Below, one piece after another: positions 9,491-20,413 of a stretch of DNA of 24,000 nt. The notes beneath the pieces are model-generated. The model worked only from the letters and a program-made list of their open reading frames with translations, had not been told where the DNA came from and ran no database searches. Position numbers and translations under genes: made by a program. Origin of the DNA: Bdellovibrio sp. UBA4095. Lineage in GTDB: Bacteria; Bdellovibrionota; Bdellovibrionia; Bdellovibrionales; Bdellovibrionaceae. The DNA lies in the NCBI GenBank assembly GCA_002381805.1, contig DFXZ01000004.1:992039-1016038 (forward strand), read 5' to 3'. Each line of letters begins with the position of its first letter. Position 1 is the stretch's first letter.

Positions 9491-10720
9491 CTATCGTTTC
9501 GCAGGACGTTCGCCAAACAAAATAGTCCCAAGACGCACAATAGTTGCGCCTTCTTCGATGGCGACTTTAAAGTCATGGCTCGTGCCCATTGACAGTTCGT
9601 TTAAGGGATGGGTTTTCAGATCCGTATTTTTCGCGAGGTCCTCCCGCAGTTCGCGCAGCTGCCTAAAGTAGGGACGTGCTGACTCCCCAGTTTCGGTTAA
9701 TGGTGGCATCGTCATGAAACCGCAGATTTTAAGATGACTAAGCTGTACAAGTTGATTCCAGGCAGTCCAAAGCGCTGCTTTATCGAACCCACTTTTGGTG
9801 GCCTCTTTCGCTAAATTCACCTGCACAAGAATAGACTGATGAATATTTTTGTTTATGCAGGCCTTATTCAGGACTTCGGCAAGCTCCAAGGAGTCGACAG
9901 AGTGAATAAGATGAAAACGACCGACGACGAGCTTGGCCTTATTCTTTTGTAAATGACCAATAAGATGCCACTCAATTTCAACGAGATCTTGCAATGAATC
10001 GAGCTTCTCGAGCGCCTCTTGCACGTAGTTTTCCGCAAACTTCCTTTGACCTAGTTGATAAATCTCGCGAATTCTTTCGCTTGTCTGAAGTTTAGAAACG
10101 GCGAGCAATTTTGCCGGTCGGCTTTGTTCTGAGAGGTTTTGAAAATTCAGTCTATCAAGTAATTTGCGGACGACTTGAATCGGCAAACCCACGACATTGT
10201 CGTACGATCCTTCGAACTTTTCGACGAACTCACGACCTTGGCCTTGTATTCCGTAGGCACCGGCTTTGTCCATGGGTTCGCCGGTTTGAATATAGGCTCG
10301 TATTTGCTCGGGACTTAGTTTTTTGAAGAACACGTTTGTGATCTCAACATGAGACACTTCCCTCTGGGTTTCGCTATCGATCATACATACAGCAGTCATC
10401 ACCTGATGTGCTTTCCCCGACAAAAGGCTGAGTATGCGAAAGGCGTCGTCCGGATTCTCCGGTTTGCCAAGGGGAGCATTGTCGAAAATGACTTCGGTAT
10501 CCGCTGACAGGACCGTGAAACTTTCGTTGCGACTGGACTTTAGGTCAGATAGTGCAGCACTGGCTTTTCGTCTAGCGATGTCTAAAATTTGCTCGTTCAC
10601 ATTCAGGTTTTTGTCAGGAATTTCCGATACTTTAACTGATACCACGTCGAATGAAAAACCGGCCTCATTAAGAAGTTCGCGGCGACGTGGTGACTGTGAT
10701 GCCAGAATGAGTGGTTTCAT
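9491..10720 (-). CDS. maf-yggS: Fusion protein: Maf nucleotide pyrophosphatase (aa 1-~189) + YggS/YlmE PLP-binding protein (aa ~190-409)
   Basis: Maf motifs: LILASQSPRRRELL, GKPENPDDA, DKAGAYGIQG, GSYDNVVGLP. YggS motifs: LLAVSK (PLP Lys, aa 210), WHLIGHLQKNK, LSMGTSHDFKVAIEEGATIVRLGTILFG. It is one uninterrupted 409-aa frame. Confidence 0.9.
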   Translation of the reverse strand: MKPLILASQSPRRRELLNEAGFSFDVVSVKVSEIPDKNLNVNEQILDIARRKASAALSDLKSSRNESFTVLSADTEVIFDNAPLGKPENPDDAFRILSLLSGKAHQVMTAVCMIDSETQREVSHVEITNVFFKKLSPEQIRAYIQTGEPMDKAGAYGIQGQGREFVEKFEGSYDNVVGLPIQVVRKLLDRLNFQNLSEQSRPAKLLAVSKLQTSERIREIYQLGQRKFAENYVQEALEKLDSLQDLVEIEWHLIGHLQKNKAKLVVGRFHLIHSVDSLELAEVLNKACINKNIHQSILVQVNLAKEATKSGFDKAALWTAWNQLVQLSHLKICGFMTMPPLTETGESARPYFRQLRELREDLAKNTDLKTHPLNELSMGTSHDFKVAIEEGATIVRLGTILFGERPAKR

Positions 10721-10729
10721 GAGTTTTAC

Positions 10730-10749
10730 TTGAACACAAAGAGGTTCAA
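10730..10749 (+). promoter_or_regulatory. Inverted repeat TTGAAC-N8-GTTCAA enclosing the RBS and abutting the start codon of the tadC-like gene
   Basis: Read directly: ttgaac acaaagag gttcaa, then ATG at 10750. The AAGAGG SD (10739-10744) sits in the loop and 3' arm. A regulatory role is inferred. Confidence 0.35.
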
Positions 10750-11658
10750 ATGGGAAGTGCAGAGTTAATGCTCATCTTAGGACTTCTACTCGCAGGAGTA
10801 GCGGTCTTCCTATTTGTAAATTCGATCTTTGCAAGCAACCAAGACAAGCAGCAATTGTCCTGGGCGAATAATGATGAACCCATTAAATCAAAAAATCCGG
10901 TTATCAACTTTTCGCGGCCATTAGTGCATCAGTTTACGCTTCAGCACGCCTTAAGAATTCGCAGTGAGAACTATCGTAAGCGTGTTTCGAAGTACATTAA
11001 AACTGCCGGACTCTCTGCCGAGCTGAATGTGGATGAGTTTATTGGTTTGCAATTACTTTGGGGAATCATGTTTCCCATCTTTTTGCTGATCATGAACTTT
11101 TCATTGCAGCTGGGGTTGTCTACTGGAATGGTCGTCGGCATGGGATTGATAGGCTTTTATTTGCCGCAGATTCACGCTAAAGGCGAAAAGAAGCGACGTG
11201 AACTTTCTGTTCGCGCGGATTTACCATTCTTCATTGACCTGTTGGCATTGTCAGTCGAAGCGGGCTTGGACTTTTTCTCTTCCATCCAGAAAATCGTGGA
11301 TAAGGCACAGGGTACTAATAGTGTATTGGCTGACGAACTTGGAACGGTCCTAAAAGATATTAAAATTGGTGCGTCGAAAACTCAGGCTCTGAAAGACATG
11401 GCGGAGCGTTTGGATATGAATGAAATTACCAGCTTTGTGGCAGTTCTGATCGATGCTGAAACAACGGGGGCAAGTATCTCGATGGTTTTAAAAGATCAGT
11501 CTGAACAGATGCGCCTGGAGAGATTCGTGCGAGCGGAAAAAGCTGGTGCCCGTGCGTCTCAAACAATTTTGATTCCTTTGATGCTTTTTATATTGCCCGC
11601 TGTTTTTATCATCGTATTCGGTCCAGTGGCGGTTTCATTTATGTATGGGAATAAGTAA
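10750..11658 (+). CDS. TadB/TadC-type (T2SS-F/GspF domain) inner-membrane platform protein
   Basis: 302 aa with an N-terminal TM, a central TM pair and a C-terminal TM. The single T2SS-F-like domain is RADLPFFIDLLALSVEAGLDFFSSIQKIV...ITSFVAVLIDAETTGASISMVLKDQSEQMR. Size and topology are typical of TadB/TadC, and I cannot tell B from C. Confidence 0.85.
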   Translation: MGSAELMLILGLLLAGVAVFLFVNSIFASNQDKQQLSWANNDEPIKSKNPVINFSRPLVHQFTLQHALRIRSENYRKRVSKYIKTAGLSAELNVDEFIGLQLLWGIMFPIFLLIMNFSLQLGLSTGMVVGMGLIGFYLPQIHAKGEKKRRELSVRADLPFFIDLLALSVEAGLDFFSSIQKIVDKAQGTNSVLADELGTVLKDIKIGASKTQALKDMAERLDMNEITSFVAVLIDAETTGASISMVLKDQSEQMRLERFVRAEKAGARASQTILIPLMLFILPAVFIIVFGPVAVSFMYGNK

Positions 11659-12011
11659 TGATGTCTGCAGTGCTTGAAAATAAAACCACAAATCAAAAGT
11701 TGATCGCTGATCTTGAGATCGCGAGTGACTTTTGGTCTCGCGGCAAGGGACTTCTGGGAAGGTCTTCCCTTGCTGAGGGGCAGGCTTTGTGGATTCATCG
11801 CTGCAATAGCATTCATACATTTTTTATGAAGTTCTCAATTGATTGTGTTTTTGTAGATAAAAATCTGAAAGTAAAGGCCCTTTATCAGAATGTTCAACCG
11901 TGGCGCTTAGTTCCTCCAGTATGGGGAGCGAATTCTGTCATTGAAATGCGTTCGGGAACGATTGGTGAAAGAAAAATTTCGGTAGGAGATCAACTCTATG
12001 TGGGCACTTAG
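11658..12011 (+). CDS. DUF192 (COG1430) family protein
   Basis: 117 aa. The pattern DFWSRGKGLLGRSSLAEGQALWIHRCNSIHTFFMKFSIDCVFVDKNLKV...SVIEMRSGT...VGDQL fits DUF192. There is no signal peptide. The start overlaps the upstream stop (TAATG). Confidence 0.85.
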   Translation: MMSAVLENKTTNQKLIADLEIASDFWSRGKGLLGRSSLAEGQALWIHRCNSIHTFFMKFSIDCVFVDKNLKVKALYQNVQPWRLVPPVWGANSVIEMRSGTIGERKISVGDQLYVGT

Positions 12012-13653
12012 AATACTTTCGGGCCCACAGTCGGGCCAAATATTAGATTTAAAAAGTGGTAGAAATCTTCTAGGTCGCTCTCCACATTGTGACGTCAAAA
12101 TCACCAGTCCGGGTGTTTCCAAAGAACATACCGAGATCACAGTTTTCAAAGACAAGATCGTGGTAACGGATTTGAAGTCAAGCAACGGGACTTATTTAAA
12201 TGGAGTTCGCATCCAGACTGGTATCATGCGCTTAGGTGATAAGCTCAGTGTTCATGAGGTTTTGGTAGATATTATCCCTGCGCCTCAGGCTCACTTGGGT
12301 CCTTCGGCCGCAGCAGCGCCTATGCCTTATTATGGTGGCGCTGCACCTCAAATGCCTATGGGAATGCCACTTGGTGCAACTGGTGGAATGCCAGCAGGAA
12401 TGCCGCAACCGATGGCGATGGGTGTGCCCGGAGAAGGTCCGCTGGAAAACGAAGCTCCAGCTCCAGCATATCATCCTGGTGGTATCAAAGCCATTCTTGA
12501 TCGTCTGCATGAGTACTTAGAAAAAGTTGCTTTACCAGGTGTTTATAAACTTCCGCAATTTATGGAGCTTAAGTTTGTCTTGTTAGGCTTTGTTATTCTT
12601 TTCATATTCTCGACGACTTTGCTGTCCATGCTCCCTATGGTACAGATAACTCGTGCGAGCATAATTAACGAAAGTAAAAGAAGAGCGGCTTCCATTGCTA
12701 GAACTGTGGCGACTCTTAATCAAACGGCTTTGTTGCAAAATAATTATGCCTCATTAAGTACGAATGCCGCAGAGTCCGAGGAAGGCGTTACTCAAGTTTT
12801 AATCGTTCAGCAATCCGATGGCATGATACTAGCTCCTGCATCGCGAGCGGGAACGACGCCGGACCTTCCATTTGTTCATACGGCCCGTCGCGAGATGCGG
12901 CCTCAGTCTGTCGCTGTCGATTCGTCCACTATTGGTGCTAGTTTTCCCATAGGACTTTTCGATGCCAGCACGGGTGAGCAATCGATCAAGGCTCATGCTA
13001 TTGTACTTTATGATATCGGAAGTTTGGCATTTGATGATGGCCGAGCAATCAGCCTCTTCATGCAGACACTGGTCATTGCGATCTTACTTGGGTTGTTGAT
13101 TTATTTCTTTATGTACAAGTTAATTGTCTATCCGATTTCGACTTTAAATTCACAGCTCGATGTGGCAATGAGGGAAAAAACGGATAACACTGAAGTGAAC
13201 TTTAACTTTCCACCTCTTCAGGCTTTGATAGGAAATATCAATAGCTTGCTGTCTCGCTATATTCACGGCGACGCTGAGTCTGGAAGCGGTGGAGCAGGAT
13301 TTTTCAATAAGGATGGCGAAGCAGAGAATCTAGTGCAAATGGTAGGATTCCCATGCGTTAGTATTTCTCGAGAAGGTCGAATTATTTCGTGCAACACCGC
13401 CTTTACTCAGGTAGCTCACGCGGAAGTTGCGCAGCTGCAAGGACAAATGTATCAAGTTTTGCCGGATGTGGCTTTGCAACAGAATATTCAAGGACTGTTG
13501 GCGAAAACCACTGAAAACCCACGATCCATTCATACAGACCAACTGGAGTTTGGAGGTCATCCTTGTATCTTGAGCTGTCAGGCGATCACGTCTTCAGCAG
13601 GAGAAGTGGACTATTTCCTTATCACAGTATCACCGAATGAAGGAGGCTCCTGA
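11998..13653 (+). CDS. Membrane sensor-like protein: FHA, Pro/Met/Gly-rich linker, TM, periplasmic domain, TM, HAMP-like, PAS-like (no transmitter domain)
   Basis: 551 aa. FHA is aa 1-92 (nt 11998-12273) with GR...SKEH...SSNG. The linker is aa 93-162. TM1 is aa 192-215 (12571-12642), followed by a ~137-aa predicted periplasmic segment, then TM2 at aa 353-377 (13054-13128). The HAMP-like part is YPISTLNSQL...LQALIGNINSLLSRY. The PAS-like part is aa ~440-548 (ISREGRIISCNTAFTQV...). An AGGAG RBS is present, and the gene overlaps DUF192 by 14 nt. Confidence 0.85.
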   Translation: MWALRILSGPQSGQILDLKSGRNLLGRSPHCDVKITSPGVSKEHTEITVFKDKIVVTDLKSSNGTYLNGVRIQTGIMRLGDKLSVHEVLVDIIPAPQAHLGPSAAAAPMPYYGGAAPQMPMGMPLGATGGMPAGMPQPMAMGVPGEGPLENEAPAPAYHPGGIKAILDRLHEYLEKVALPGVYKLPQFMELKFVLLGFVILFIFSTTLLSMLPMVQITRASIINESKRRAASIARTVATLNQTALLQNNYASLSTNAAESEEGVTQVLIVQQSDGMILAPASRAGTTPDLPFVHTARREMRPQSVAVDSSTIGASFPIGLFDASTGEQSIKAHAIVLYDIGSLAFDDGRAISLFMQTLVIAILLGLLIYFFMYKLIVYPISTLNSQLDVAMREKTDNTEVNFNFPPLQALIGNINSLLSRYIHGDAESGSGGAGFFNKDGEAENLVQMVGFPCVSISREGRIISCNTAFTQVAHAEVAQLQGQMYQVLPDVALQQNIQGLLAKTTENPRSIHTDQLEFGGHPCILSCQAITSSAGEVDYFLITVSPNEGGS

Positions 13654-14747
13654 TGAGTGCTGCTCCCAAGGTGAAAGACAGTTTGAAATTCGATATTGAG
13701 GTCATCAAGGGGCCTCACATCGGCTTAAAGCTTTCCTTTGAAAAGGGAGTGGTATCTATTGGTAGAGGTCCCGAAAACGATTTGGTCCTTGCCAGTGATC
13801 CAAGAGTCAGTCGTGCTCATGCGGAGATTCGCCAGCGTGGAGCGGACTTCGTTATCGTTAATCTAAGTCAAAAGAACTTTGTTTTGGTAAATGGTGAAAA
13901 TGTTCAATCAGAAGTTTTAACGGCAAACATGCTGGTGCAAATTGGAGACACGGAATTCCGCTTTATTCCGCCAATAGTTCCTTCGACCCCAGAACCTGTG
14001 GCACCTCAGGGTATGGTGCAGAATGTTCCGGCAAATCCAGCCATCTTAAATCCTCAGTCAGGGACTCCCGTTTTAAGACCTCAGGCTCCACCGCCCGGAA
14101 TGCCTTCACCTCCGCCCGTAAGGCCTCATGCTGGTGGGCAACCTCAGGGGGCAAGAGCTTCGGCTTCTCGGCAGGCAAGGCCTCATAGCCCACCGTCTTC
14201 AGGGATCGATCCAAGAGTTCGATTCTATGGGATTGTCGTTATCATAGGTTTAGTGGGTTGGTTTTTGTTGTCGCCTTCCAAGAATGGCGCAAAAAAAGAT
14301 CCTAACGAGATACGAACATCAGTGATTTCTCTTCAAGATGTGGCGGAAGCGGAAAAGCGAACTCAGGAATTATTGACAATTAAAAAAGAAAAATATGACT
14401 CTGTTCAGTATCGCAGGGCGCAGGAGAATTTCATTAAAGGCTTTAGGGATTTTCAACAAGGGCAATATGCTAGAGCGCGTGAATCTTTCCAGGTCGTATT
14501 GAACTTGGATCCAGAAAATGAGCTAGCAAAAAGATATTACAGTCTATCAAAAATTAAATTCGACGAGCTAGTAAAGTTTAATATGATTCAGGGTAATAGA
14601 TATCGAGAAAAGAAGAACTGGCGTATGTGTCAGTCAAATTATTCGAATGTTATGACCATGCTGCAGAATCGCAAGGACGACCCAACATATAAAGAAGCGA
14701 AGCAATTTTACGATGAGTGTACTTTGAATCTGGAGGGCAGATTCTAA
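13653..14747 (+). CDS. FHA-domain inner-membrane protein with a periplasmic TPR-like domain
   Basis: 364 aa. FHA is aa 11-104 (nt 13683-13964) with IGRGPEN...VSRAH...VLVNG. The Pro-rich linker is aa 105-187. The TM is FYGIVVIIGLVGWFLL (14220-14273). The C-terminus has TPR-like repeats (FRDFQQGQYARARESFQVVLNLDPENELA). AGGAGG RBS, and the start overlaps the upstream stop (TGATG). Confidence 0.85.
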   Translation: MSAAPKVKDSLKFDIEVIKGPHIGLKLSFEKGVVSIGRGPENDLVLASDPRVSRAHAEIRQRGADFVIVNLSQKNFVLVNGENVQSEVLTANMLVQIGDTEFRFIPPIVPSTPEPVAPQGMVQNVPANPAILNPQSGTPVLRPQAPPPGMPSPPPVRPHAGGQPQGARASASRQARPHSPPSSGIDPRVRFYGIVVIIGLVGWFLLSPSKNGAKKDPNEIRTSVISLQDVAEAEKRTQELLTIKKEKYDSVQYRRAQENFIKGFRDFQQGQYARARESFQVVLNLDPENELAKRYYSLSKIKFDELVKFNMIQGNRYREKKNWRMCQSNYSNVMTMLQNRKDDPTYKEAKQFYDECTLNLEGRF

Positions 14748-16726
14748 TGGCTCGTTTGAAAGTGCGCCTTCGCGGTCAGATTTTACACGACATAATTCTT
14801 GCGGAAGATCGCGAGTATATTGTCGGTCGCAAAGAAGATTGCGATATAGTTCTGCCTGTTGAAAAAGGGATCTCACGTGAACACATAAAGATTTCTTTTG
14901 TCGATAATTTTTGGACAGTGGAACTCGTATCTCGTTACGGAGAACTAATACATAAAGGGGAACAGTCTCCACATTTTGCTTTGGATCAAGATGGCACTTT
15001 TTCTATCCCTCCTTTTGAGTTCGACTTTTTGAAAAACTCTGAGGGACGCAAAGAGAAAGCGACAGCCAGTGCGAATCTTCCTGCGGTGACCGGAGTCCAC
15101 GAAGTGGCCTTCGGCGGAGATGATGAAAAAACGATCGTGGGCGCTCCACGGACATCGGCTTTCGTTAAAGTGACGGATCCCAACGGCGGCGTGAAGGAAA
15201 TGATTCAGCTAGATGCAGGGGACTCGTGGCTTGCTGGTCGAGATTCAACCTGTCAAATTCAGATTCACGATCAACGTGTCAGCCGCCGTCAGTTCGAATT
15301 GCGACTGGTAAATTCACAGTATGCAATCGTTGACTTGGGAAGCGTTAATGGAACTCTGGTAAACGGAAATCCAATATCAACGTCAGAGCCGTTGATACTA
15401 AAGAGCGGCGATGCAATTAGTGTTTTAGATAACTATTTTTATTTCGAGCTTCACGATGCAAATTTCCAGCGTCGGTTAGAGCTTGTGGTCGCACAACCGA
15501 TGAGCCCTTTGGTTCAGGGGCAAGATTACGGCCATTCGCCGATGACGCCAATTCCATATCCTCAACAGTATCCTGCTCCTTATCAGGCTCCCTATCCTGG
15601 GGTTGTGACAACACCTGATTCAGAGTCCGGAAGTAAGAAGTTTGATTACAAAAAAAATCGACCCAAAATTATCGCGGGTGCAATTGCACTTTTAGTTGTC
15701 GCATATTTCTTTAGCGGTGGGGAAAGTCAGCAGTCGGCAAATTCGCCTACTGGGGCATTTGCGCCGGGTTCTCCACAAGAAGTCTTTTCCAAGCTGAAGC
15801 CCGAACAGCAAGCTCTAGTTCGACAACGTTATAAAGATGCTAAGAATCTTTATATGCAGGGGAAATATCAGCTCGCCCAAGATGAGATTATTAAAATACA
15901 AGAGCTTGTTCCTGACTATGAAGACATTCGAGAAATCGAAAGACTTTCAAAAGAAGCGATTTACATTCAGGACCAGCAGCGTCGACATGAGGAGCTTGAA
16001 AAAGCTAAAGCAGAAAATGAGGCGAAGATTCAAACGCAAGTAGCCCAATGTCGAAAGATTATTAATCCTTCGATCACTGTCGCGCAAATGGACGAATGTG
16101 TAAGCCCAGTGCTGCAGTTCGGACCGGAGCATCCAGGAATTTTGGATTTACGCTCTCAAGTGGAAGCTATTGTAGCTCAGCGTGAAGCAAAAGCAGCAGA
16201 GCGTGAAGCATACCAGGAAAGGGTAGCGCGTCTGACTCACCTCTATAATAAAGCACAGAGCGTTCAGAAGAGTGGCAAGCCTTTGGATGCCATCGCGGCA
16301 TTTGAAAAAGTCGTCGAGTCAAGTCTGCCGGACCCGCACCGCTATAAAGATCAGTCTAAACGGACGATTGCTTCGATACGCTCGATGATGAACTCGAAGA
16401 CTGCGAGTTTACAAGCAGAGGCTGAAAAGTTTTATCAAGCTCAGAATCTGCGTATGGCAATTATGACTTTGCGAAAGGCGCGTCAGATTGATCCGACCAA
16501 TGATGAGTTGCCCGAGAAAATCGAACGTTACACCGTTGAACTAAGGAAACAGATGATGTCGCTTTATCAGGAAGGAATTCTTGAAGAGAGTTTTGGCAAT
16601 GTGGACGGAGGCGAGTCGCGTGCCGGAGCCAAGGATAAATGGAAAAAGATTCTTGAGCTGGATATCGCAGATGGTGAGTACTATAAAAAGGCATACATTA
16701 AGCTTAAGAAATACGGTGCTCTATGA
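14747..16726 (+). CDS. Tandem-FHA inner-membrane protein with a long periplasmic TPR/coiled-coil domain
   Basis: I prefer the ATG at 14747 (MARLKV...; GGAGGG RBS 9 nt upstream; TAATG overlap) over the GTG at 14717 in the ORF track. FHA-a is aa 1-94 (14747-15028) with VGRKED...ISREH but YG in place of NG. FHA-b is aa 138-236 (15158-15454) with AGRDS...VSRRQ...SVNG. The P/Y/Q-rich linker is PIPYPQQYPAPYQAPYPG. The TM is IIAGAIALLVVAYFF (15665-15712). About 330 aa of helical TPR-like C-terminus follow. Confidence 0.85.
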   Translation: MARLKVRLRGQILHDIILAEDREYIVGRKEDCDIVLPVEKGISREHIKISFVDNFWTVELVSRYGELIHKGEQSPHFALDQDGTFSIPPFEFDFLKNSEGRKEKATASANLPAVTGVHEVAFGGDDEKTIVGAPRTSAFVKVTDPNGGVKEMIQLDAGDSWLAGRDSTCQIQIHDQRVSRRQFELRLVNSQYAIVDLGSVNGTLVNGNPISTSEPLILKSGDAISVLDNYFYFELHDANFQRRLELVVAQPMSPLVQGQDYGHSPMTPIPYPQQYPAPYQAPYPGVVTTPDSESGSKKFDYKKNRPKIIAGAIALLVVAYFFSGGESQQSANSPTGAFAPGSPQEVFSKLKPEQQALVRQRYKDAKNLYMQGKYQLAQDEIIKIQELVPDYEDIREIERLSKEAIYIQDQQRRHEELEKAKAENEAKIQTQVAQCRKIINPSITVAQMDECVSPVLQFGPEHPGILDLRSQVEAIVAQREAKAAEREAYQERVARLTHLYNKAQSVQKSGKPLDAIAAFEKVVESSLPDPHRYKDQSKRTIASIRSMMNSKTASLQAEAEKFYQAQNLRMAIMTLRKARQIDPTNDELPEKIERYTVELRKQMMSLYQEGILEESFGNVDGGESRAGAKDKWKKILELDIADGEYYKKAYIKLKKYGAL

Positions 16727-17421
16727 TTGCGATGAAACTTCAAGAGCGATCTTACAGTACCAAGATCATCCGTCCCAAGCCTATGATTCACCAGGAAGAC
16801 GACGGCTCTCTGATCGTTCTAGCAACTGTATGGGGGCAAGCTGAGCACGGGCAAAGGGCGATAGATGAAGTGGTTAAATATGTGAATGCAGCAAAAGCGG
16901 ATGTGGAAGTAACATCACCTTTCGAGTATCTTAACTGCCTAACTGATGAGGCAAACTACGTTAGAACGGCCCTTCATATCGCCAATGACATCCTCTATCG
17001 CGGCGAAAACAGAAAAGAATATATTTCCGGCGTGGAGATCATGGCATTGTTCTGCAGAGGCAACCAGGTGGCCTGGGCTCATGTGGGATGCCCTAGTTTA
17101 TTTATTCAAAGAAGTGATCGTAGGCTGCAGCCGTTGTCCATTGGAATGGATCTTTCTTCTGAACTTAAAGAACATGACCAGATTATGGCTCCTTTGCCGG
17201 CGCAGCTATTAGGGTTAGAACCAACCTGTCATGTGCGCAGTGGCCATACTCGAATTAACAGTGGTGATCAGTTGGTTCTTCTGGGCAGTTCGTTAATTGC
17301 CAATTCTTTATTGATTCGACCTTTTGGGGAGTTCGCTCTGGCCGATATTACCAATCGGATGATTCAAGAGGAGCCTGAAAATCCATTCTGGCTTGGCCTT
17401 GTTGATTTGGCAGATAGCTAG
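16723..17421 (+). CDS. PP2C/PPM-fold protein with degenerate catalytic motifs (probable pseudophosphatase)
   Basis: 232 aa, aligned by eye to bacterial PPMs (PrpC/Stp type). Motif 1 is kept (IHQEDDG vs. xHNEDD). Motif 2 is LATVWGQAEHG instead of VADGMGGH (Asp lost). ALFCRGNQVAWAHVGCPSLF replaces ALxxxxxxxxAxxGDSRxY. GDQLVLLGSSL replaces GDxLLLCSDGL (Asp lost). PENPF replaces GxDNxT. The start overlaps the upstream stop (ATGA). Confidence 0.65.
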   Translation: MIAMKLQERSYSTKIIRPKPMIHQEDDGSLIVLATVWGQAEHGQRAIDEVVKYVNAAKADVEVTSPFEYLNCLTDEANYVRTALHIANDILYRGENRKEYISGVEIMALFCRGNQVAWAHVGCPSLFIQRSDRRLQPLSIGMDLSSELKEHDQIMAPLPAQLLGLEPTCHVRSGHTRINSGDQLVLLGSSLIANSLLIRPFGEFALADITNRMIQEEPENPFWLGLVDLADS

Positions 17422-19226
17422 TTTTCATGTGCAGAGACGGAACGATAAACTTGTGCTCGAAGACGAGAATACTCCGGCAAATTCAACGCCAACTCGGTTC
17501 GTGAAGGCGCAAAAATATTATCTCTGTTGGTGTCCCAAATCATTCCGGCAGCTATATTCACACGCTGAATTTCTTGATCCAGAAGATAATTCCGAAATGA
17601 CCGTTCGAAGCGCACTCGTTGAGCCTCTTTGGAAAGCCCACGAATATCGGCACGAACCCAGTCAATGAGCTCAAGAAACAGCGGATCGCTACAGGCTTTT
17701 AGCTGTGGGGTATCTATTTCTTTGGCCTGCAGAAGTAAAAAGCAGCTATCGTCTATTTTAGCCTTTTTATTCTTTAGATTGCGGTCCGCAATGTAAAGCC
17801 ATGAGGATATTTTATGCTTGGTGCCCAGTTCGCGCAGTACGGCCCAATCTCGACGGTTCAGTGCGATCTGTGCCGTCCAGTTTAAAAGATCTAAACTTCT
17901 GGGTTGAAAATTACTCAACCTGTGCAGTGAGCTCAAAAGATGTCGCTCCTGATCTGGCTTCATCCAAGTAGGGAAAGAGATGCTTAATTTCGTGCTCCAT
18001 TCGCGGGGAAGGCTCGGAAAGGGAGTCATTTTATTTTTTTGTAACAGATGCTGTAGTCGAGTGGTCGTCGGCAGGATGCTCTCTTGAAGTAGTGGAAGTG
18101 GGTTTACTTCGAATCGATCGACAAGTGTATTGTATAGTCGGGGAGACTCGTCATTAATAAAGAGAACATGTTGGGCCAGTCCGGCAGTGCGTAGCGGTCC
18201 GGCTTTTCGCCATAGTGCCCAACCTGATTCAAGAAGAATGGGACGGTTCTCTGAAAAAGTAAGCTCTGGAGATTTAAGAGCCCCCAGAAGTGAGTGAGAG
18301 GGAAAGTCAACATTATCATTTTCGACGATAGGTTGTCCCAGAAGATCAAAAAGTGTCCTGCCAACATCCACTAAAGTTACGTTCTGATCGATCTTCCAGT
18401 GTATTGCTTCGTCGCGCTTTTTTTGCGCGGGCTTAATAAATAGTGCGACCTGGGTATTTTCACCGTGCAGATTGAGCGGAGCTATTTCGCGATCGCGAGT
18501 GGAAGTGGTATGCCCATTTAGTCCTGTTAGGATAATGGTTGTATTATCCCAGCGATTACTTTTTTTAAGCACTGAAAAAAGACCGAAAAGGGATTCGTCA
18601 AGTTCATCTCGTTGGCTTTCGAAGCTTAAGTTTCGTGTGTCACCAAGTTCGGACACCGTTTCGGTCGTCGTAAAAACCAGATCAGGGATATAGATGAAGC
18701 TGAAAAAGGGGCTTTTAGTGCTTTCTTCCGATACCCATTGCAAAAAAAGCTCTGCGTTTCTTTGAAAGGGGCGATAGAGACTGGAAAATGTCGGGATGAT
18801 GTTGTCTTCGTAAAGTTCAAATCCTTGGTTCAAGCCACTACGACGAAAGACGGGCGCTCCGCCCGAAAAGAAACTCGTTCGATAGTTTTTTTGAATGGCC
18901 ACTTCCGAGGCGAGTTCAAACTCCGCCTCTAGTCCTGGCCCACCATTGTTGCGAACTTTATGTTGGTATGGGTAAAGACCCGTCAGAATAGAAGCAAGCG
19001 CCGGTACAGAAAGGGTGGATGGAGTAAAGGCATGTGTAAACCTTACCGATTCTTTACAAAGGATGTGAAATCCAGAACGTTCATTGATTTCTCGATGGCA
19101 TGGCACGTCGCCAATGGTCAGTTCATCCACCGCAATAACCAATATCGAGCTTCTGTCGTTTGATTGACAGGAAAGCTGGACCAAGCTCAGTAGAATGAAA
19201 AGTGCGGCAAAAATGATTTTCGGCAT
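17418..19226 (-). CDS. Sulfatase/alkaline-phosphatase-superfamily exported protein with a non-canonical nucleophile motif and a ~250-aa helical C-terminal extension
   Basis: 602 aa with an N-terminal signal sequence (IIFAALFILLSLVQLSC). The sulfatase-type N-terminal block is ILVIAVDEL...FTPSTLSVPALASILTGLYPYQHKV. The (C/S)xPxR position reads SVPAL (nt 18996-19010), so the Arg is absent. Confidence 0.8.
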   Translation of the reverse strand: MPKIIFAALFILLSLVQLSCQSNDRSSILVIAVDELTIGDVPCHREINERSGFHILCKESVRFTHAFTPSTLSVPALASILTGLYPYQHKVRNNGGPGLEAEFELASEVAIQKNYRTSFFSGGAPVFRRSGLNQGFELYEDNIIPTFSSLYRPFQRNAELFLQWVSEESTKSPFFSFIYIPDLVFTTTETVSELGDTRNLSFESQRDELDESLFGLFSVLKKSNRWDNTTIILTGLNGHTTSTRDREIAPLNLHGENTQVALFIKPAQKKRDEAIHWKIDQNVTLVDVGRTLFDLLGQPIVENDNVDFPSHSLLGALKSPELTFSENRPILLESGWALWRKAGPLRTAGLAQHVLFINDESPRLYNTLVDRFEVNPLPLLQESILPTTTRLQHLLQKNKMTPFPSLPREWSTKLSISFPTWMKPDQERHLLSSLHRLSNFQPRSLDLLNWTAQIALNRRDWAVLRELGTKHKISSWLYIADRNLKNKKAKIDDSCFLLLQAKEIDTPQLKACSDPLFLELIDWVRADIRGLSKEAQRVRFERSFRNYLLDQEIQRVNIAAGMIWDTNRDNIFAPSRTELALNLPEYSRLRAQVYRSVSAHEN

Positions 19227-19229
19227 ACC

Positions 19230-19259
19230 TTGACCGGATCTAATGGTTTTAGTGATAAT
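19230..19259 (+). promoter_or_regulatory. Candidate sigma70-type promoter for exbB-exbD
   Basis: TTGACC (19230-19235), N18, GATAAT (19254-19259), about 40 nt upstream of the RBS-supported ATG at 19303. Confidence 0.4.
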
Positions 19260-19302
19260 GAATCAATTAATTTGTTCAGTCAAAGATTTGGAGGATCTCT
19301 TC

Positions 19303-19932
19303 ATGCTCACGGAAAAAATATTTACAGTTGCACACTTGATCGATCAAGCTGTCTTGTGGGTCCTGCTTGTGCTCAGTGTGTTGAGCATTGGAATGATTCT
19401 AGAGCGTTTTTTTGCTCTCAGAAAAGTTTCTGCGGAATCGCAGAGAGTTCGGGCAAAAATAAAAATTGCTTTGCAAAGCAATAGTGTCGAAGACGTCGAA
19501 GACCTTTCTAAAGATCCTAATTCACTGGAAGGAAGAGCGGCGAGTTATGCACTGAAACACATGAGAACTTCGGGAAGCAAAGGTCTTTCAGAAATCTTCA
19601 ATACGTTTGCATTGACTGAAAAGCCCGAGTTGGAAAGATTTTTGGGGTTTCTTGCGACAGTGGGATCGAACGCTCCTTATATTGGGTTGTTTGGAACAGT
19701 GCTAGGAATTATGAAAGCATTTAATGATTTGGCATTGGCACCGGAAGCTGGTCAGCAAACAGTGATGGCCGGTATTTCAATGGCCCTCGTAGCGACTGCT
19801 GCCGGACTGTTCGTGGCGATTCCGGCCGTTATTTTCTATAACTATTATAGCAAACAGGTACGGGGCATCTTTAATAGTTTGGAAAGCGTGAAAGAACTTT
19901 GCTTGGCATACGCTAAGAAAAAAGGTGTTTAA
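19303..19932 (+). CDS. exbB: MotA/TolQ/ExbB-family proton-channel protein
   Basis: I prefer the start at 19303 (MLTEKIF...; GGAGGA RBS at 19290-19295). The ORF-track start at 19243 lies upstream of the candidate promoter's -10. There are three TMs, and the conserved segment is GSNAPYIGLFGTVLGIMKAF...GISMALVATAAGLFVAIPAVIFYNY. No tolA-tolB-pal follows, so I label it exbB rather than tolQ, tentatively. Confidence 0.88.
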   Translation: MLTEKIFTVAHLIDQAVLWVLLVLSVLSIGMILERFFALRKVSAESQRVRAKIKIALQSNSVEDVEDLSKDPNSLEGRAASYALKHMRTSGSKGLSEIFNTFALTEKPELERFLGFLATVGSNAPYIGLFGTVLGIMKAFNDLALAPEAGQQTVMAGISMALVATAAGLFVAIPAVIFYNYYSKQVRGIFNSLESVKELCLAYAKKKGV

Positions 19933-19934
19933 GA

Positions 19935-20339
19935 ATGGCTATGAATACTGGAGATAACAACGAGGCGATAGCCGATATCAATGTGGTCCCACTCGTAGAT
20001 ATTATTCTAGTGGTCCTCATTATTTTCATGGTTACAGCACCTATGTTTATGAAGCCAACTATCAACGTGAATCTGCCTAAAGCAGCCAGCGGTGACCAGA
20101 CAGCTCCCAGTAAGCTGAACATAGCTCTTACGCCAGATGGACGAATCAACCTTAATGGAGCATTCGTAAGCGAAGAAGAAGTTCTTGCTAGGGCGACAGA
20201 AGAAGTTGGAAAAAATACCGAAGTTCAAGCGATCATTTCTGCGGATAAAGAGGTCCCTCATGGTCGGGTAGTCGGTGTGCTCGACATCGTGAAAGGCGCG
20301 GGCGTAAAAAAGTTCGCGATAAGTATCGATAAAAAGTAG
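19935..20339 (+). CDS. exbD: ExbD/TolR-family protein
   Basis: 134 aa. The N-terminal TM carries the conserved Asp (INVVPLVDIILVVLIIFMVTAP), followed by a periplasmic domain. It begins 3 nt after the exbB stop. Confidence 0.9.
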   Translation: MAMNTGDNNEAIADINVVPLVDIILVVLIIFMVTAPMFMKPTINVNLPKAASGDQTAPSKLNIALTPDGRINLNGAFVSEEEVLARATEEVGKNTEVQAIISADKEVPHGRVVGVLDIVKGAGVKKFAISIDKK

Positions 20340-20413
20340 ACCTAAGTCTGATCTGCCTGATGATCTCATTTTGACACAGCTAAAGTCCTGCGTGCAAAAG
20401 CCGATCAAAAGGC

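What the first reader, a model, noticed from the sequence alone, without database searches (positions are those of the whole stretch)
10750..17421. Six-gene coupled operon: orphan Tad-type platform + DUF192 + three FHA membrane proteins + degenerate PP2C, with no kinase, ATPase, secretin or pilin
Seen in sequence: six same-strand ORFs in which every junction overlaps. The junctions are TAATG at 11656-11660, a 14-nt overlap at 11998-12011, TGATG at 13651-13655, TAATG at 14745-14749, and ATGA at 16723-16726. This gives one 6.7-kb unit bounded by a divergent gene on the left and a convergent gene on the right. Its products are: (i) a 302-aa TadB/TadC-type T2SS-F platform protein; (ii) a DUF192 protein; (iii-v) three inner-membrane proteins carrying four N-terminal FHA (phosphothreonine-reader) domains, each followed by a Pro-rich low-complexity linker and a TM helix; and (vi) a PP2C-fold protein with eroded metal-binding motifs. 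The window has no Hanks kinase, TadA/CpaF ATPase, secretin, prepilin peptidase or Flp pilin. Established knowledge: FHA + PP2C + STPK modules gate T6SS firing (Fha1/TagH-PpkA-PppA), and FHA-TM-periplasmic proteins build T3SS basal rings (YscD/PrgH class). To my recollection (to be verified), FHA genes also sit in the Tad-like Kil predation clusters of Myxococcus xanthus. Inference: this is a pThr-dependent trans-envelope scaffold or regulatory module that docks onto a Tad-like machine encoded elsewhere. I do not know a characterised system with this combination of a sensor-FHA, two FHA-TPR anchors, a pseudo-phosphatase and DUF192.
Basis: partly seen in the sequence, partly recalled or inferred. 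Interest (0 to 1): 0.82.

Follow-up and report, generated by a model that had tools for sequence, protein, structure and literature searches.

The report
Bdellovibrio tadC operon with FHA proteins
This is the already-described "tadC locus" of a predatory Bdellovibrio: the pilus platform gene tadC is co-transcribed with five accessory genes that B. bacteriovorus needs to invade prey, and how they work is still unknown.

Summary
Six same-strand ORFs (10750-17421) have overlapping junctions and encode TadC (T2SSF), DUF192, three inner-membrane proteins with four FHA domains, and a PP2C-fold protein lacking the catalytic Asp motifs. The window has no kinase, ATPase, secretin, peptidase or pilin gene.

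The unit is not new. It is the orthologue of B. bacteriovorus Bd0470-Bd0475:
- All six genes score near zero in predation Tn-seq.
- Bd0474::tn attaches to prey but cannot kill or round it.
- Bd0474 binds the TPR protein Bd0075.
- Bd0475 already had a Phyre2 serine-phosphatase hit.
- A 2026 preprint names the "tadC locus" and notes its FHA, TPR and PAS neighbours.

What I add:
- The six-gene order holds in every Bdellovibrionales genome with enough sequence.
- TadC-DUF192-FHA genes also occur in distant lineages. In Desulfonatronum they sit inside a complete Tad locus with a TadZ-TadA fusion, a second ATPase and a Hanks kinase.
- The phosphate-contacting Arg and Ser are conserved in all four FHA domains.
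- The pseudo-PP2C is specific to Bdellovibrionales and has a conserved TSPF loop.

Most likely this is a phosphothreonine-reading control or scaffold module of the Tad pilus that acts after attachment. That mechanism is inferred, not shown.

The parts
10750..11658 (+). P1, TadC: the second inner-membrane platform protein of the Tad (type IVc) pilus. 302 aa.
   Evidence: Pfam T2SSF E=2.5e-15. TM helices at residues 5-23, about 97-128 and 273-291. It matches the second T2SSF gene (TadC position) of full Tad loci far better than the first: L090 TadC E=4e-42 against TadB E=7.5e-7. It is 88-92% identical to B. bacteriovorus TadC loci. Bd0470 is named TadC/KilH in the literature.
11658..12011 (+). 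P2, DUF192 protein, 117 aa. No TM helix and no obvious signal peptide, so probably cytoplasmic.
   Evidence: Pfam DUF192 E=5.8e-20. No hydrophobic segment. A DUF192 gene lies directly after tadC in 6 of 8 distant contexts examined: Desulfonatronum, Cupriavidus, two high-GC contigs (L086, L089) and two further contigs (L087, L093).
11998..13653 (+). P3, 551 aa. Order of parts: cytoplasmic FHA (residues 1-90), low-complexity linker, TM1 (194-212), periplasmic loop of about 135 aa, TM2 (350-368), cytoplasmic PAS (451-544).
   Evidence: FHA E=4e-15 and PAS_4 at 25.4 bits, above its cut-off. TM helices. G26, R27, S41, H44, N63 and G64 are at least 95% conserved in 81 sequences. The non-FHA part aligns with its positional counterparts in L088 and L089; in L089 it is split into an FHA gene and a PAS gene.
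13653..14747 (+). P4, 364 aa. Order of parts: FHA (residues 16-106), Pro-rich linker, TM (189-207), periplasmic helical or TPR-like domain of about 155 aa.
   Evidence: FHA E=9e-13; TPR_2 is sub-threshold at 20.5 bits against a 27-bit cut-off. TM helix. G, R, S and H are at least 95% conserved and N at least 80%. It is collinear with the FHA2-TM-periplasmic part of P5, E=0.002. The Bd0473 orthologue is predicted to bind Bd0475 at ipTM 0.60.
14747..16726 (+). P5, 659 aa. Order of parts: FHA1 (residues 1-95), disordered linker (99-134), FHA2 (136-237), disordered Pro/Tyr/Gln-rich linker (244-298), TM (305-326), all-alpha periplasmic domain (343-655).
   Evidence: Two FHA stretches, E=4e-26. AF2 model pLDDT 79.8 with these segments. 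Foldseek top hits are pThr-binding FHA domains: Ki67, GarA/OdhI, FhaA and DgcB. The orthologue Bd0474 is needed after attachment and binds Bd0075.
16723..17421 (+). P6, 232 aa (alternative start at 16732). Soluble PP2C-fold protein without the catalytic Asp motifs, i.e. a pseudophosphatase. It carries an invariant loop D60-V-E-V-T-S-P66 at nt 16900-16920.
   Evidence: No Pfam hit. AF2 pLDDT 87.8. Foldseek matches PstP 4.6e-13, tPphA 7.4e-13 and PppA 7.4e-12. Only D60 is an invariant Asp, and the positions expected to hold DGxGG, SDG and DN read T/S-x-W-G, S-S and P-F-W. The family was found only in Bdellovibrio-like sequences. Distant orthologues keep the TSPF loop and also lack the Asp motifs.

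Best explanation
**What it is.** This is the tadC locus of an uncultured Bdellovibrio species, orthologous to Bd0470-Bd0475 of B. bacteriovorus.

**The parts.**
- P1 is the TadC platform subunit of the Tad pilus. The rest of that machine (secretin, TadZ-TadA ATPase, TadB, pilins) is encoded elsewhere in the genome.
- The five tightly coupled downstream genes encode an accessory module that assembles on or next to the TadB/TadC platform in the inner membrane.
- P2 is a small cytoplasmic DUF192 protein that travels with TadC across phyla.
- P3, P4 and P5 are membrane proteins whose cytoplasmic FHA domains keep the residues that grip phosphothreonine. Flexible linkers join the FHA domains to periplasmic helical domains. 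P3 also has a periplasmic loop and a cytoplasmic PAS domain.
- P6 is a PP2C-fold protein that has lost its metal ligands.

**How it probably works (inferred).**
1. A Hanks-type Ser/Thr kinase phosphorylates Thr sites on Tad or module proteins when the predator engages prey. That kinase is encoded inside the locus in Desulfonatronum and one other lineage, and in trans in Bdellovibrio.
2. The FHA domains dock on those sites and couple events sensed in the periplasm to the cytoplasmic Tad motor. The periplasmic side includes the P5-type protein bound to a Bd0075-type TPR partner.
3. This licenses the step after attachment: prey killing, rounding and invasion.
4. P6 acts as a non-catalytic adaptor. 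It could be an FHA ligand through its invariant TSPF loop, or a shield for phospho-sites.

**Shown versus inferred.** Shown: gene identities, folds, conservation, synteny and the published mutant phenotypes. Inferred: phosphorylation, docking partners and the order of events.
For: **Identity as the Bd0470-Bd0475 operon.**
- P1-P6 order, with 65-88% identity, in B. bacteriovorus strain Tiberius, record CP002930.
- The literature names Bd0470 as TadC/KilH and states that the six genes form one operon.

**Function in predation.**
- Tn-seq fitness W is 0.002-0.03 (V. cholerae planktonic prey, VCPL) and 0.03-0.13 (V. cholerae biofilm prey, VCBF) for all six genes in the full screen, and at most 0.064 in the mini screens.
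- Bd0470::tn cannot attach. Bd0474::tn attaches but cannot kill or round prey. Both were complemented.
- TadC could not be deleted and sits at the invasive pole.

**Link to Tad beyond Bdellovibrio.**
- TadC-DUF192-FHA-FHA, in three cases followed by a 2xFHA gene, follows TadB inside or next to full Tad loci in Desulfonatronum (L088), L086 and L087.
- L088 and L086 also carry a second T2SSE ATPase and a Pkinase gene, E=1e-40 and 4e-52.
- P3 and P5 align with their positional counterparts outside the FHA domains.
- M. xanthus has FHA and FHA-TPR genes next to kilH.

**Competence to read pThr.**
- The Gly-Arg pair and the phosphate-contacting Ser are at least 95% conserved in all four FHA domains across 72-81 orthologues. 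The Asn is kept in three of the four.
- Structural neighbours of the FHA domains are pThr-binding FHA domains.

**Coupling of the genes.**
- The five junctions are overlapping or at most 10 nt apart in most of the roughly 80 genomes. The 14-nt P2/P3 overlap occurs in 74 of 80.
- There is no excess of internal promoter-like or terminator-like sites.

**P6 as an inactive PP2C.** AF-Multimer predicts Bd0473 with Bd0475 at ipTM 0.60.

**Candidate trans kinase.** Bd3148 has a Phyre2 hit to PknG at 100% and Tn-seq W of 0.003.
Against: - No phosphorylation event, kinase-substrate pair or FHA ligand has been shown for any of these proteins.
- The Bdellovibrio operon contains no kinase and no active phosphatase.
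- The low Tn-seq fitness of upstream genes could partly reflect polar effects. Only Bd0470 and Bd0474 were complemented, and complementation needed Ptac induction.
- FHA1 of P5 has Tyr in place of the canonical Asn, and FHA2 has Gln in place of His.
- The assignment of lost catalytic residues in P6 rests on secondary-structure register and invariant-residue counts, not on a residue-level structural superposition.
- The whole neighbourhood (Maf, sulfatase-like gene, ExbB) is syntenic across Bdellovibrionales, so gene order within the order is weak evidence on its own.
- Only 8 distant contexts were sampled. Two of them (L091, L092) lack both DUF192 and FHA genes.
Confidence: 0.6

Rival explanations
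1. Phosphorylation-independent structural role. The FHA-TM-periplasmic proteins would be fixed building blocks of the Tad basal body. They could form an inner-membrane ring like T3SS SctD (YscD/PrgH), or act as TolA/GltG-like connectors that link a motor to the periplasm. In this reading the FHA domains are plain protein-protein interaction modules.
For: - All four FHA domains also score above threshold on Pfam Yop-YscD_cpl, at 53-68 bits against a 33.2-bit cut-off.
- The operon has no kinase or active phosphatase.
- GltG has the same 2xFHA-TM-long periplasmic layout and binds a TolQ-like motor. Its partner GltJ has a GYF domain, as does Bd0075, the partner of Bd0474.
- An ExbB/ExbD pair lies 1.8 kb downstream and is syntenic across the order.
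- The 2025 BACTH interaction runs through periplasmic and TM parts, not through the FHA domains.
Against: - The phosphate-binding Arg and Ser are at least 95% conserved in all four domains.
- The nearest structures are pThr-binding FHA domains, not SctD.
- A Hanks kinase is encoded in the same locus in two distant lineages.
- The periplasmic domains are all-alpha, not SctD-type ring-building motifs.
- No ExbBD pair accompanies the module outside Bdellovibrionales.
Confidence: 0.25
2. An independent signalling pathway that is merely co-transcribed with tadC. The FHA/PAS proteins and P6 would regulate something else, such as gliding, the type IVa pilus, c-di-GMP signalling or the growth-phase switch, and would have no physical link to the Tad machine.
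For: - The Bd0474 mutant phenotype (attaches but does not invade) differs from the TadC mutant phenotype (does not attach).
- Bd0474 binds Bd0075, which is encoded far from any tad gene, and Bd0075 is also predicted to bind a DNA-binding protein, Bd3743.
- Another Bdellovibrio FHA protein, DgcB, controls c-di-GMP at invasion (abstract).
Against: - The same FHA trio follows TadC-DUF192 in genomes from different phyla, inside complete Tad operons.
- The junctions suggest translational coupling and are conserved.
- Kil clusters of M. xanthus show the same adjacency.
Confidence: 0.1
3. P6 is an active phosphatase with a non-canonical catalytic site. The module would then carry its own eraser, as PppA does in the T6SS threonine-phosphorylation pathway.
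For: - P6 has a PP2C fold with PppA among the top structural matches.
- R17 is invariant at roughly the position of the PP2C phosphate-binding Arg.
- There are faint SpoIIE and Stp1 profile traces.
Against: - Only one Asp (D60) is invariant across the family, and it lies in a loop between helices.
- The strand-end positions that hold the metal-binding Asp residues in PP2Cs carry Thr/Ser, Ser and Pro/Phe.
- No Pfam PP2C model reaches threshold in the window protein or in six distant orthologues.
- A profile of the family finds no solved PP2C by sequence.
Confidence: 0.05

Closest known systems
Bd0470-Bd0475 operon ('tadC locus') of Bdellovibrio bacteriovorus HD100/109J
   Same: - Orthologous gene for gene: TadC, DUF192, FHA/PAS, FHA, 2xFHA and a PP2C-like protein.
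- Same order, same flanks and the same coupled junctions.
- Published data show all six genes are needed for predation, and that Bd0474 acts after attachment and binds Bd0075.
   Different: - Different species: 65-88% protein identity to strain Tiberius.
- Here Maf and YggS upstream are fused into one ORF.
- No experiment exists for this organism.
Myxococcus xanthus Kil system, cluster 2 (MXAN_4648-4652)
   Same: - A Tad-like predation machine in which FHA and FHA-TPR genes sit directly beside the TadC-type platform gene kilH.
- Bd0470 is the reciprocal best hit of KilH.
   Different: - In Myxococcus, kilH stays next to kilG, kilB and the pilin genes.
- The ATPase KilF carries its own FHA domain.
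- The published table lists no DUF192 or PP2C-like gene.
- I could not fetch the M. xanthus DNA, so I did not test homology of the FHA proteins beyond their domains.
Tad locus of Desulfonatronum thiodismutans (JPIK01000023; locus L088) and related uncultured lineages
   Same: - The same TadC, DUF192, FHA, FHA/TPR and 2xFHA/TPR series.
- P3 and P5 align outside the FHA domains.
- The ATPase is a TadZ-TadA fusion, as reported for B. bacteriovorus TadZA.
   Different: - The module is contiguous with the whole Tad machine.
- It is followed by a TPR protein, a second ATPase and a Pkinase-TPR protein instead of a pseudo-PP2C.
- The host is a sulfate reducer (class Desulfovibrionia), not a known predator (my own knowledge).
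- It is uncharacterised.
T6SS threonine-phosphorylation pathway (Fha1/TagH, PpkA, PppA) of Pseudomonas aeruginosa
   Same: - FHA proteins together with a Hanks kinase and a PP2C-fold protein, associated with an envelope machine that responds to cell contact.
- PppA is among the best structural matches of P6.
- There is a weak NCBIfam TagH hit for P4.
   Different: - The machine is a Tad pilus, not a T6SS.
- The FHA proteins are membrane-anchored with periplasmic domains.
- The PP2C-fold protein lacks catalytic residues.
- There is no kinase in the operon.
GltG/GltJ of the M. xanthus Agl-Glt gliding machinery
   Same: - GltG has two cytoplasmic FHA domains, disordered linkers, one TM helix and a long periplasmic extension, like P5.
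- GltJ carries a GYF domain, as does the Bd0474 partner Bd0075.
   Different: - GltG and GltJ end in TonB-C-like domains and work with a TolQR-like motor.
- P5 ends in an all-alpha domain.
- Sequence similarity is confined to the FHA domain: NCBIfam GltG scores 29 bits against a 650-bit cut-off.
T3SS inner-membrane ring protein SctD (YscD/PrgH)
   Same: A cytoplasmic FHA-fold domain, a single TM helix and a periplasmic domain. The Pfam Yop-YscD_cpl model is matched.
   Different: - The periplasmic parts are helical, not ring-building motifs.
- The pThr-binding residues are conserved here.
- There are no T3SS genes nearby.
- NCBIfam SctD scores 26 bits against an 86-bit cut-off.

Membership tests
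TadC (T2SS-F family platform protein of Tad/Flp pili) | GspF/T2SSF domain above the curated threshold | tested here: met
   PF00482 scores 57 bits against a 25.2-bit cut-off.
TadC (T2SS-F family platform protein of Tad/Flp pili) | Polytopic inner-membrane protein with about 3 TM helices | tested here: met
   Hydrophobic segments at residues 5-23, 97-128 and 273-291.
TadC (T2SS-F family platform protein of Tad/Flp pili) | Orthology to the second (TadC) rather than the first (TadB) platform gene of Tad loci | tested here: met
   BLASTP against the Cupriavidus locus gives TadC E=4e-42 and TadB E=7.5e-7. The same pattern holds in L086.
TadC (T2SS-F family platform protein of Tad/Flp pili) | Encoded with tadA, tadB, rcpA and flp | tested here: not met
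   None of these genes is in the 24-kb window. This separation is the known state in B. bacteriovorus. The feature is met in distant relatives.
FHA domain (phosphothreonine-binding) | FHA fold or profile above threshold | tested here: met
   PF00498 scores 49-92 bits against a 20.7-bit cut-off for four domains. AF2 beta-sandwiches match FHA structures at TM 0.8-0.9 on the target.
FHA domain (phosphothreonine-binding) | Conserved phosphate-contacting residues: G-R, S-x-x-H and N-G | tested here: met
   G-R and Ser are at least 95% conserved in all four domains. P3 is fully canonical. P4 keeps Asn in at least 80% of sequences. P5 FHA1 has Tyr for Asn, and P5 FHA2 has Gln for His.
FHA domain (phosphothreonine-binding) | Binds a pThr peptide | not testable with these tools
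   Needs ITC or pull-down experiments with phosphopeptides.
PP2C/PPM Ser/Thr phosphatase | PPM fold: a beta-sandwich flanked by helices | tested here: met
   Foldseek against PstP, tPphA and PppA gives E=1e-13 to 1e-11, probability 1.00 and TM 0.60-0.69.
PP2C/PPM Ser/Thr phosphatase | Conserved metal-binding Asp motifs: RxxxxD, DGxGG, GDSR, SDG and DN | tested here: not met
   - Only D60, in a loop, is an invariant Asp.
- The strand-end positions read T/S35-x-W-G, G122-x-P-S, S188-S189 and P221-F-W.
- Distant orthologues show the same pattern.
- The register is inferred from secondary structure, not from a residue-level superposition.
PP2C/PPM Ser/Thr phosphatase | Sequence profile above the curated threshold | tested here: not met
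   No Pfam PP2C or SpoIIE hit. NCBIfam Stp1 scores 16.8 bits against a 230-bit cut-off. The family profile finds no PDB sequence.
T3SS SctD (YscD/PrgH) | Periplasmic ring-building motifs and a T3SS gene context | tested here: not met
   The periplasmic domain of P5 is all-alpha. TIGR02500 scores 26 bits or less against an 86-bit cut-off. There are no T3SS genes in the window.
T6SS Fha/TagH-PpkA-PppA pathway | Hanks kinase and active PP2C encoded alongside T6SS core genes | tested here: not met
   The window has no kinase and no T6SS genes, and P6 lacks the catalytic motifs. TagH TIGR03354 scores 35.7 bits against a 120-bit cut-off.
Kil-type (FHA-associated) Tad system | FHA-domain genes adjacent to the TadC/KilH platform gene | tested here: met
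   Three FHA genes follow tadC here. MXAN_4648 and MXAN_4649 lie next to KilH in the published table, and Bd0470 is the KilH orthologue.
Kil-type (FHA-associated) Tad system | Single Tad ATPase with an N-terminal FHA domain (KilF) and a short secretin lacking the N0 domain | not testable with these tools
   These genes lie outside the window. In B. bacteriovorus the reported ATPase is a TadZ-TadA fusion. An FHA-TadA fusion was seen in the Cupriavidus locus.
DUF192 (COG1430) | PF02643 above threshold | tested here: met
   71.7 bits against a 27-bit cut-off.

The most novel reading that the evidence does not exclude
TadC-DUF192-FHAx3 may be the conserved core of a phosphothreonine gate that defines a distinct, cross-phylum subclass of Tad pili. 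These pili would have a TadZ-TadA or FHA-TadA motor and would be served by a dedicated PknG-like Hanks kinase.

In Bdellovibrionales, on this reading, the kinase moved in trans; a candidate is the predation-essential Bd3148. The slot after the 2xFHA gene is filled by a pseudo-PP2C (a HEAT-repeat or TPR gene in other lineages). Its conserved TSPF loop would serve as the phospho-switch or FHA ligand that licenses prey invasion after attachment.
Probability: 0.3. Interest if true: 0.65.

Novelty: already known. Interest (0 to 1): 0.4.

Why it matters
The Tad pilus is required for Bdellovibrio to hold on to and enter prey. A related Kil machine kills prey in Myxococcus. Reviews name the FHA proteins around these machines as the likely, but untested, link between prey contact and machine activity.

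This window adds no new system. The comparison made here sharpens the question in four ways:
- The FHA trio and DUF192 are ancestral Tad accessories found across phyla, including a sulfate-reducing Desulfonatronum. I know of no report that it is a predator (my own knowledge).
- In some lineages they are encoded together with a Hanks kinase.
- Their phosphate-binding residues are under strong constraint.
- The PP2C-like partner in Bdellovibrio is catalytically dead but carries a conserved TSPF loop.

These points give concrete point mutants and a candidate kinase to test.

Tried and rejected
1. **FHA-TadC fusions as a 'Rosetta stone'.** Many TadC relatives carry N-terminal extensions of 120-240 aa. 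Pfam finds no FHA or any other domain in ten of them. The extensions look like signal-peptide plus Cys-rich periplasmic regions. Idea dropped.
2. **Sequence-level proof that P6 is a PP2C.** A family profile against PDB sequences gave no hit even at E<=10. The PP2C assignment therefore rests on fold alone.
3. **Foldseek against afdb50.** The library was unavailable.
4. **Reaching Myxococcus through the genome scan.** The single genome-contig scan returned the best 80 loci, all Bdellovibrionales. The M. xanthus comparison therefore rests on the published table. Distant contexts came from the look-up of encoding contigs instead.
5. **DUF192 function.** The literature search gave nothing relevant, and phmmer against the PDB gave no hit.
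6. **RomR proximity network.** Neither the main text nor the held supplements mention Bd0470-Bd0475.
7. **Internal promoters or terminators that would split the unit.** Counts were at or below shuffle expectation, and none sits at a junction.
8. **RNA genes.** Rfam and tRNA scans of the window were empty.
9. **Active PP2C in deep-branching orthologues.** The sixth genes from 18 distant loci lack the catalytic Asp motifs by eye. Six of them were scanned and have no Pfam PP2C hit.

Full report
**1.

The window carries six + strand ORFs:

| Product | Coordinates |
|---|---|
| P1 | 10750-11658 |
| P2 | 11658-12011 |
| P3 | 11998-13653 |
| P4 | 13653-14747 |
| P5 | 14747-16726 |
| P6 | 16723-17421 |

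These are listed. The junction strings are exactly as reported: TAATG, a 14-nt overlap, TGATG, TAATG and ATGA.

Two small corrections apply.
- The longest ORF5 begins at GTG 14717, but all homologues begin at MARLKV, so ATG 14747 is the right start.
- ORF6 homologues begin at the fourth codon, MKLQERSYS. The true start may therefore be 16732, a 5-nt gap rather than an overlap.

The left neighbour is a divergent Maf-YggS fusion whose start lies 29 nt from the tadC start. The right neighbour is a convergent sulfatase/phosphodiesterase-like gene whose stop overlaps the P6 stop.

**2. Domain content**

Pfam results:
- P1: T2SSF, E=2.5e-15.
- P2: DUF192, E=5.8e-20.
- P3: FHA plus PAS_4.
- P4: FHA plus sub-threshold TPR.
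- P5: two FHA domains plus sub-threshold TPR.
- P6: nothing.

Hydropathy shows two TM helices in P3 (residues 194-212 and 350-368), one in P4 (189-207) and one in P5 (308-326). Each follows a stretch rich in Pro, Gly, Ala, Met and Gln. P2 and P6 have none.

The AF2 model of P5 has mean pLDDT 79.8. It shows two FHA sandwiches, disordered linkers at residues 99-134 and 244-298, a TM helix, and an all-alpha periplasmic domain built from long helices. 'TPR' is therefore only loosely right. Its structural neighbours are pThr-binding FHA domains: Ki67, GarA/OdhI, FhaA and Bdellovibrio DgcB.

The rest of the window encodes ValRS, a porin, an MFS transporter, DivIVA, ProC, ExbB/ExbD, PssA, Asd and hypothetical proteins. 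It has no kinase, T2SSE ATPase, secretin or A24 peptidase, and no ORF with a Flp motif. It also has no Rfam or tRNA hit.

**3. P6 is a PP2C-fold pseudophosphatase**

P6 homologues (175 hits) come only from Bdellovibrio-like sequences and carry no Pfam domain.

An AF2 model built from 37 sequences has pLDDT 87.8 and pTM 0.87. Foldseek matches it to PstP (4.6e-13), tPphA (7.4e-13) and the T6SS phosphatase PppA (7.4e-12).

By sequence the family is unrecognisable as PP2C:
- The family profile finds no PDB chain.

Only one Asp (D60) is invariant. The strand ends that carry the metal-binding Asp residues in PP2Cs read Thr/Ser-x-Trp-Gly, Ser-Ser and Pro-Phe-Trp. This register comes from secondary structure, not from a residue-level superposition.

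The sixth genes of 18 very distant Bdellovibrionales loci show the same pattern. Six of them were scanned against Pfam and have no PP2C hit. Most keep a conserved acidic-x-acidic-x-T-S-P-F loop, which here is D60-VEV-T64-S-P-F.

**4. It is the published Bd0470-Bd0475 operon**

Exact-sequence look-ups place the window in uncultured Bdellovibrio assemblies. B. bacteriovorus Tiberius and a Bdellovibrionales MAG at about 50% identity have the same six genes and the same flanks.

What the literature already reports:
- **Seef et al. 2021.** Bd0470 is the orthologue of M. xanthus KilH. FHA (MXAN_4649) and FHA-TPR (MXAN_4648) genes sit beside kilH.
- **Duncan et al. 2019.** Bd0470 is TadC. BD0470::tn fails to attach. 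BD0474::tn attaches but cannot kill or round prey. Both were complemented. [quoted passage not shown]
- **Duncan et al. 2019, Data Set S4.** All six genes have predation fitness far below 0.3: W of 0.002-0.03 on V. cholerae planktonic prey (VCPL), 0.03-0.13 on V. cholerae biofilm prey (VCBF), and at most 0.064 in the mini screens. A Phyre2 hit of Bd0475 to serine phosphatases (91%) is recorded there.
- **A 2025 paper.** Bd0474 binds the GYF-TM-TPR protein Bd0075 by BACTH. AF-Multimer predicts Bd0473 with Bd0475 at ipTM 0.60. The paper states that Bd0470-Bd0475 form one operon.
- **A July 2026 preprint.** It names the 'tadC locus'. It reports that tadC could not be deleted and that TadC localises to the invasive pole. 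It notes neighbouring genes with TPR, FHA and PAS domains but does not study them.
- **A 2025 review.** It still lists the FHA proteins of kil clusters as untested candidates.

The unit is therefore known. Its mechanism is not.

**5. New comparative evidence**

*Within Bdellovibrionales.* A genome scan anchored on TadC returned 80 loci, with P1 identity of 56-92%. By tblastn, every locus with enough downstream sequence has P1 to P6 in order, down to about 25% identity for P6.

An automated pass scored 52 of 59 eligible loci as complete. In the seven it did not score, the table still shows all six best hits in ascending order. The large negative P3/P4 gaps suggest FHA cross-hits confused the ORF parsing.

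The junctions stay tight. The 14-nt P2/P3 overlap is present in 74 of 80 loci, and at the other four junctions overlaps of 1 or 4 nt are the commonest spacing. The flanking Maf, sulfatase-like and ExbB genes are also syntenic, so order alone is weak evidence inside this order.

*Beyond Bdellovibrionales.* An exhaustive HMMER search with P1 found 286 cluster representatives at E<=1e-30. A profile of the distant ones gave proteins whose contexts could be read. I examined eight:

| Locus | Source | Context |
|---|---|---|
| L088 | Desulfonatronum thiodismutans (Desulfovibrionales) | A24 peptidase, Tad-domain (PF13400) gene, RcpC, secretin, TadZ-TadA fusion, TadB, TadC, DUF192, FHA (502 aa), FHA/TPR (341 aa), 2xFHA/TPR (593 aa), TPR, second T2SSE ATPase, Pkinase-TPR |
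| L086 | 68% GC contig | Same core, ending in an ATPase and a Pkinase |
| L087 | 2.9-Mb contig | TadC, DUF192 and three FHA genes next to TadE, RcpC and secretin genes |
| L089, L093 | 72% GC MAG contig; an SRA (Logan) assembly contig | Isolated TadC, DUF192, FHA (plus a separate PAS gene in L089), FHA, 2xFHA, then a HEAT-repeat protein |
| L090 | Cupriavidus | FHA-TadA fusion, TadB, TadC, DUF192, TadE |
| L091, L092 | two further metagenome contigs | No DUF192 or FHA genes |

P3 and P5 align with their positional counterparts outside the FHA domains. P4 is collinear with the FHA2-TM part of P5.

From this I conclude:
- TadC-DUF192 is a conserved pair.
- The FHA trio is an ancestral accessory of one Tad subclass.
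- A Hanks kinase is part of the locus in some lineages.
- The sixth position is variable: pseudo-PP2C in Bdellovibrionales, HEAT or TPR elsewhere.

**6. Are the FHA domains likely to read pThr?**

Across 72-81 orthologues, the Gly-Arg pair and the phosphate-contacting Ser are at least 95% conserved in all four domains.
- P3 is fully canonical (G26, R27, S41, H44, N63, G64).
- P4 keeps its Asn in at least 80% of sequences.
- P5 FHA1 has Tyr in place of Asn.
- P5 FHA2 has Gln in place of His.

This pattern favours phosphopeptide binding over a purely structural FHA fold, but binding itself is untested.

Candidate ligands (speculative):
- The invariant T64 in the TSPF loop of P6. That loop is modelled with lower confidence; the 61-70 block averages pLDDT 73.
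- The invariant T129 in the disordered inter-FHA linker of P5.

**7. Most likely mechanism and rivals**

*Best-supported reading (0.6 overall).* Identity as a Tad-associated module is about 0.9. The pThr gate is about 0.5. The module sits with TadB/TadC at the invasive pole. It reads Thr phosphorylation by a kinase encoded in trans. It couples periplasmic or prey-contact cues to the Tad motor and so licenses the step after attachment. P6 acts as a non-catalytic adaptor.

A candidate kinase is Bd3148, which is PknG-like by Phyre2 and has Tn-seq W of 0.003. Its kinase-TPR layout is my own knowledge of PknG. The layout matches the kinase encoded within the Desulfonatronum locus. I did not test orthology between the two.

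*Rivals.*
- A phospho-independent scaffold like SctD or GltG/TolA (0.25). It is supported by the architecture, by the GltG/GltJ parallel with Bd0474/Bd0075, and by the adjacent ExbBD pair.
- An unrelated signalling pathway that is merely co-transcribed (0.1).
- An active, non-canonical P6 phosphatase (0.05).

**8. Verdict**

Its claim that no characterised system has this combination is not.

The finding is an orthologue of a described, predation-essential operon whose mechanism remains open. The comparative results here turn that open question into specific tests: FHA binding-site mutants, a candidate kinase, the TSPF loop and DUF192.

Interest is moderate at 0.4. It is not a new kind of system.

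Noticed in passing
window 9491-10720 (minus strand): Maf (nucleotide pyrophosphatase) and YggS (PLP-binding, Ala_racemase_N) are fused into one 409-aa ORF. In B. bacteriovorus Tiberius they are separate genes with other genes between them. tblastn coverage of about 99% suggests the fusion also exists in several other lineages (L022, L027, L034, L038, L039 and others), while most loci show about 50% coverage.
   Followed up: partly
window 10720-10750: Only 29 nt separate the divergent start codons of maf-yggS and tadC. No sigma-70-like match was found there. The tadC promoter must therefore overlap the maf-yggS coding region or be of a non-sigma-70 type.
   Followed up: partly
window 17418-17421: The stop of P6 overlaps by 4 nt the stop of the convergent sulfatase/phosphodiesterase-like gene (17418-19226). 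This leaves no intergenic space for a terminator on either strand.
   Followed up: no
window 19243-20914: An ExbB/TolQ-like gene, an ExbD gene and a 166-aa ORF lie 1.8 kb downstream. The ExbB gene is syntenic with the operon across Bdellovibrionales. GltG, a 2xFHA membrane protein, binds a TolQ-like motor in Myxococcus, so a functional link is conceivable. The pair is absent next to the module outside this order.
   Followed up: partly
window 16900-16926 (P6 residues 60-68): The loop D-V-E-V-T-S-P-F-E is the most conserved motif of the P6 family. D60 to P66 are invariant in 37 sequences, and most distant orthologues keep '[DE]x[DE]xTSPF'. It lies between helices 1 and 2 in a lower-confidence part of the model. 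It is a candidate phospho-acceptor or FHA ligand, which is speculative.
   Followed up: partly
window 15131-15133 (P5 residue T129): An invariant Thr (EKT-x-I-G) sits in the otherwise disordered, poorly conserved linker between the two FHA domains of P5. This recalls the self-binding pThr tails of GarA/OdhI. The comparison is speculative.
   Followed up: no
proteins P0253, P0265, P0266, P0270, P0271, P0276, P0283 (TadC relatives): Many TadC relatives at 32-38% identity carry N-terminal extensions of 115-240 aa. These have a signal-peptide-like start and Cys-rich, Sel1/TPR-like sequence, but no Pfam domain. This would be a periplasmic add-on to a platform protein that I have not seen described.
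   Followed up: partly
L088 1-20888 (Desulfonatronum thiodismutans JPIK01000023): A sulfate reducer, not a known predator (my own knowledge), carries a complete FHA-associated Tad locus with a TadZ-TadA fusion, a second ATPase and a Pkinase-TPR gene. This does not sit easily with the published view that Kil-like Tad systems are confined to predatory deltaproteobacteria.
   Followed up: partly
L089 16616-17791 and L093 16336-17517: In two lineages with an isolated tadC locus, the gene after the 2xFHA protein is a HEAT-repeat protein of about 392 aa, occupying the slot held by the pseudo-PP2C in Bdellovibrionales. In L089 the P3-type protein is split into separate FHA and PAS genes.
   Followed up: partly
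Duncan et al. 2019, Data Set S4: Bd3148, annotated as a Ser/Thr kinase with a 100% Phyre2 hit to PknG, has predation fitness W of 0.003. It is a candidate trans kinase for the FHA module. Its sequence could not be fetched here.
   Followed up: no
window 232-981, 6621-7739 and 21025-21690: Three sizeable ORFs (249, 372 and 221 aa) have no Pfam hit. The 221-aa one looks like a polytopic membrane protein just upstream of pssA.
   Followed up: no
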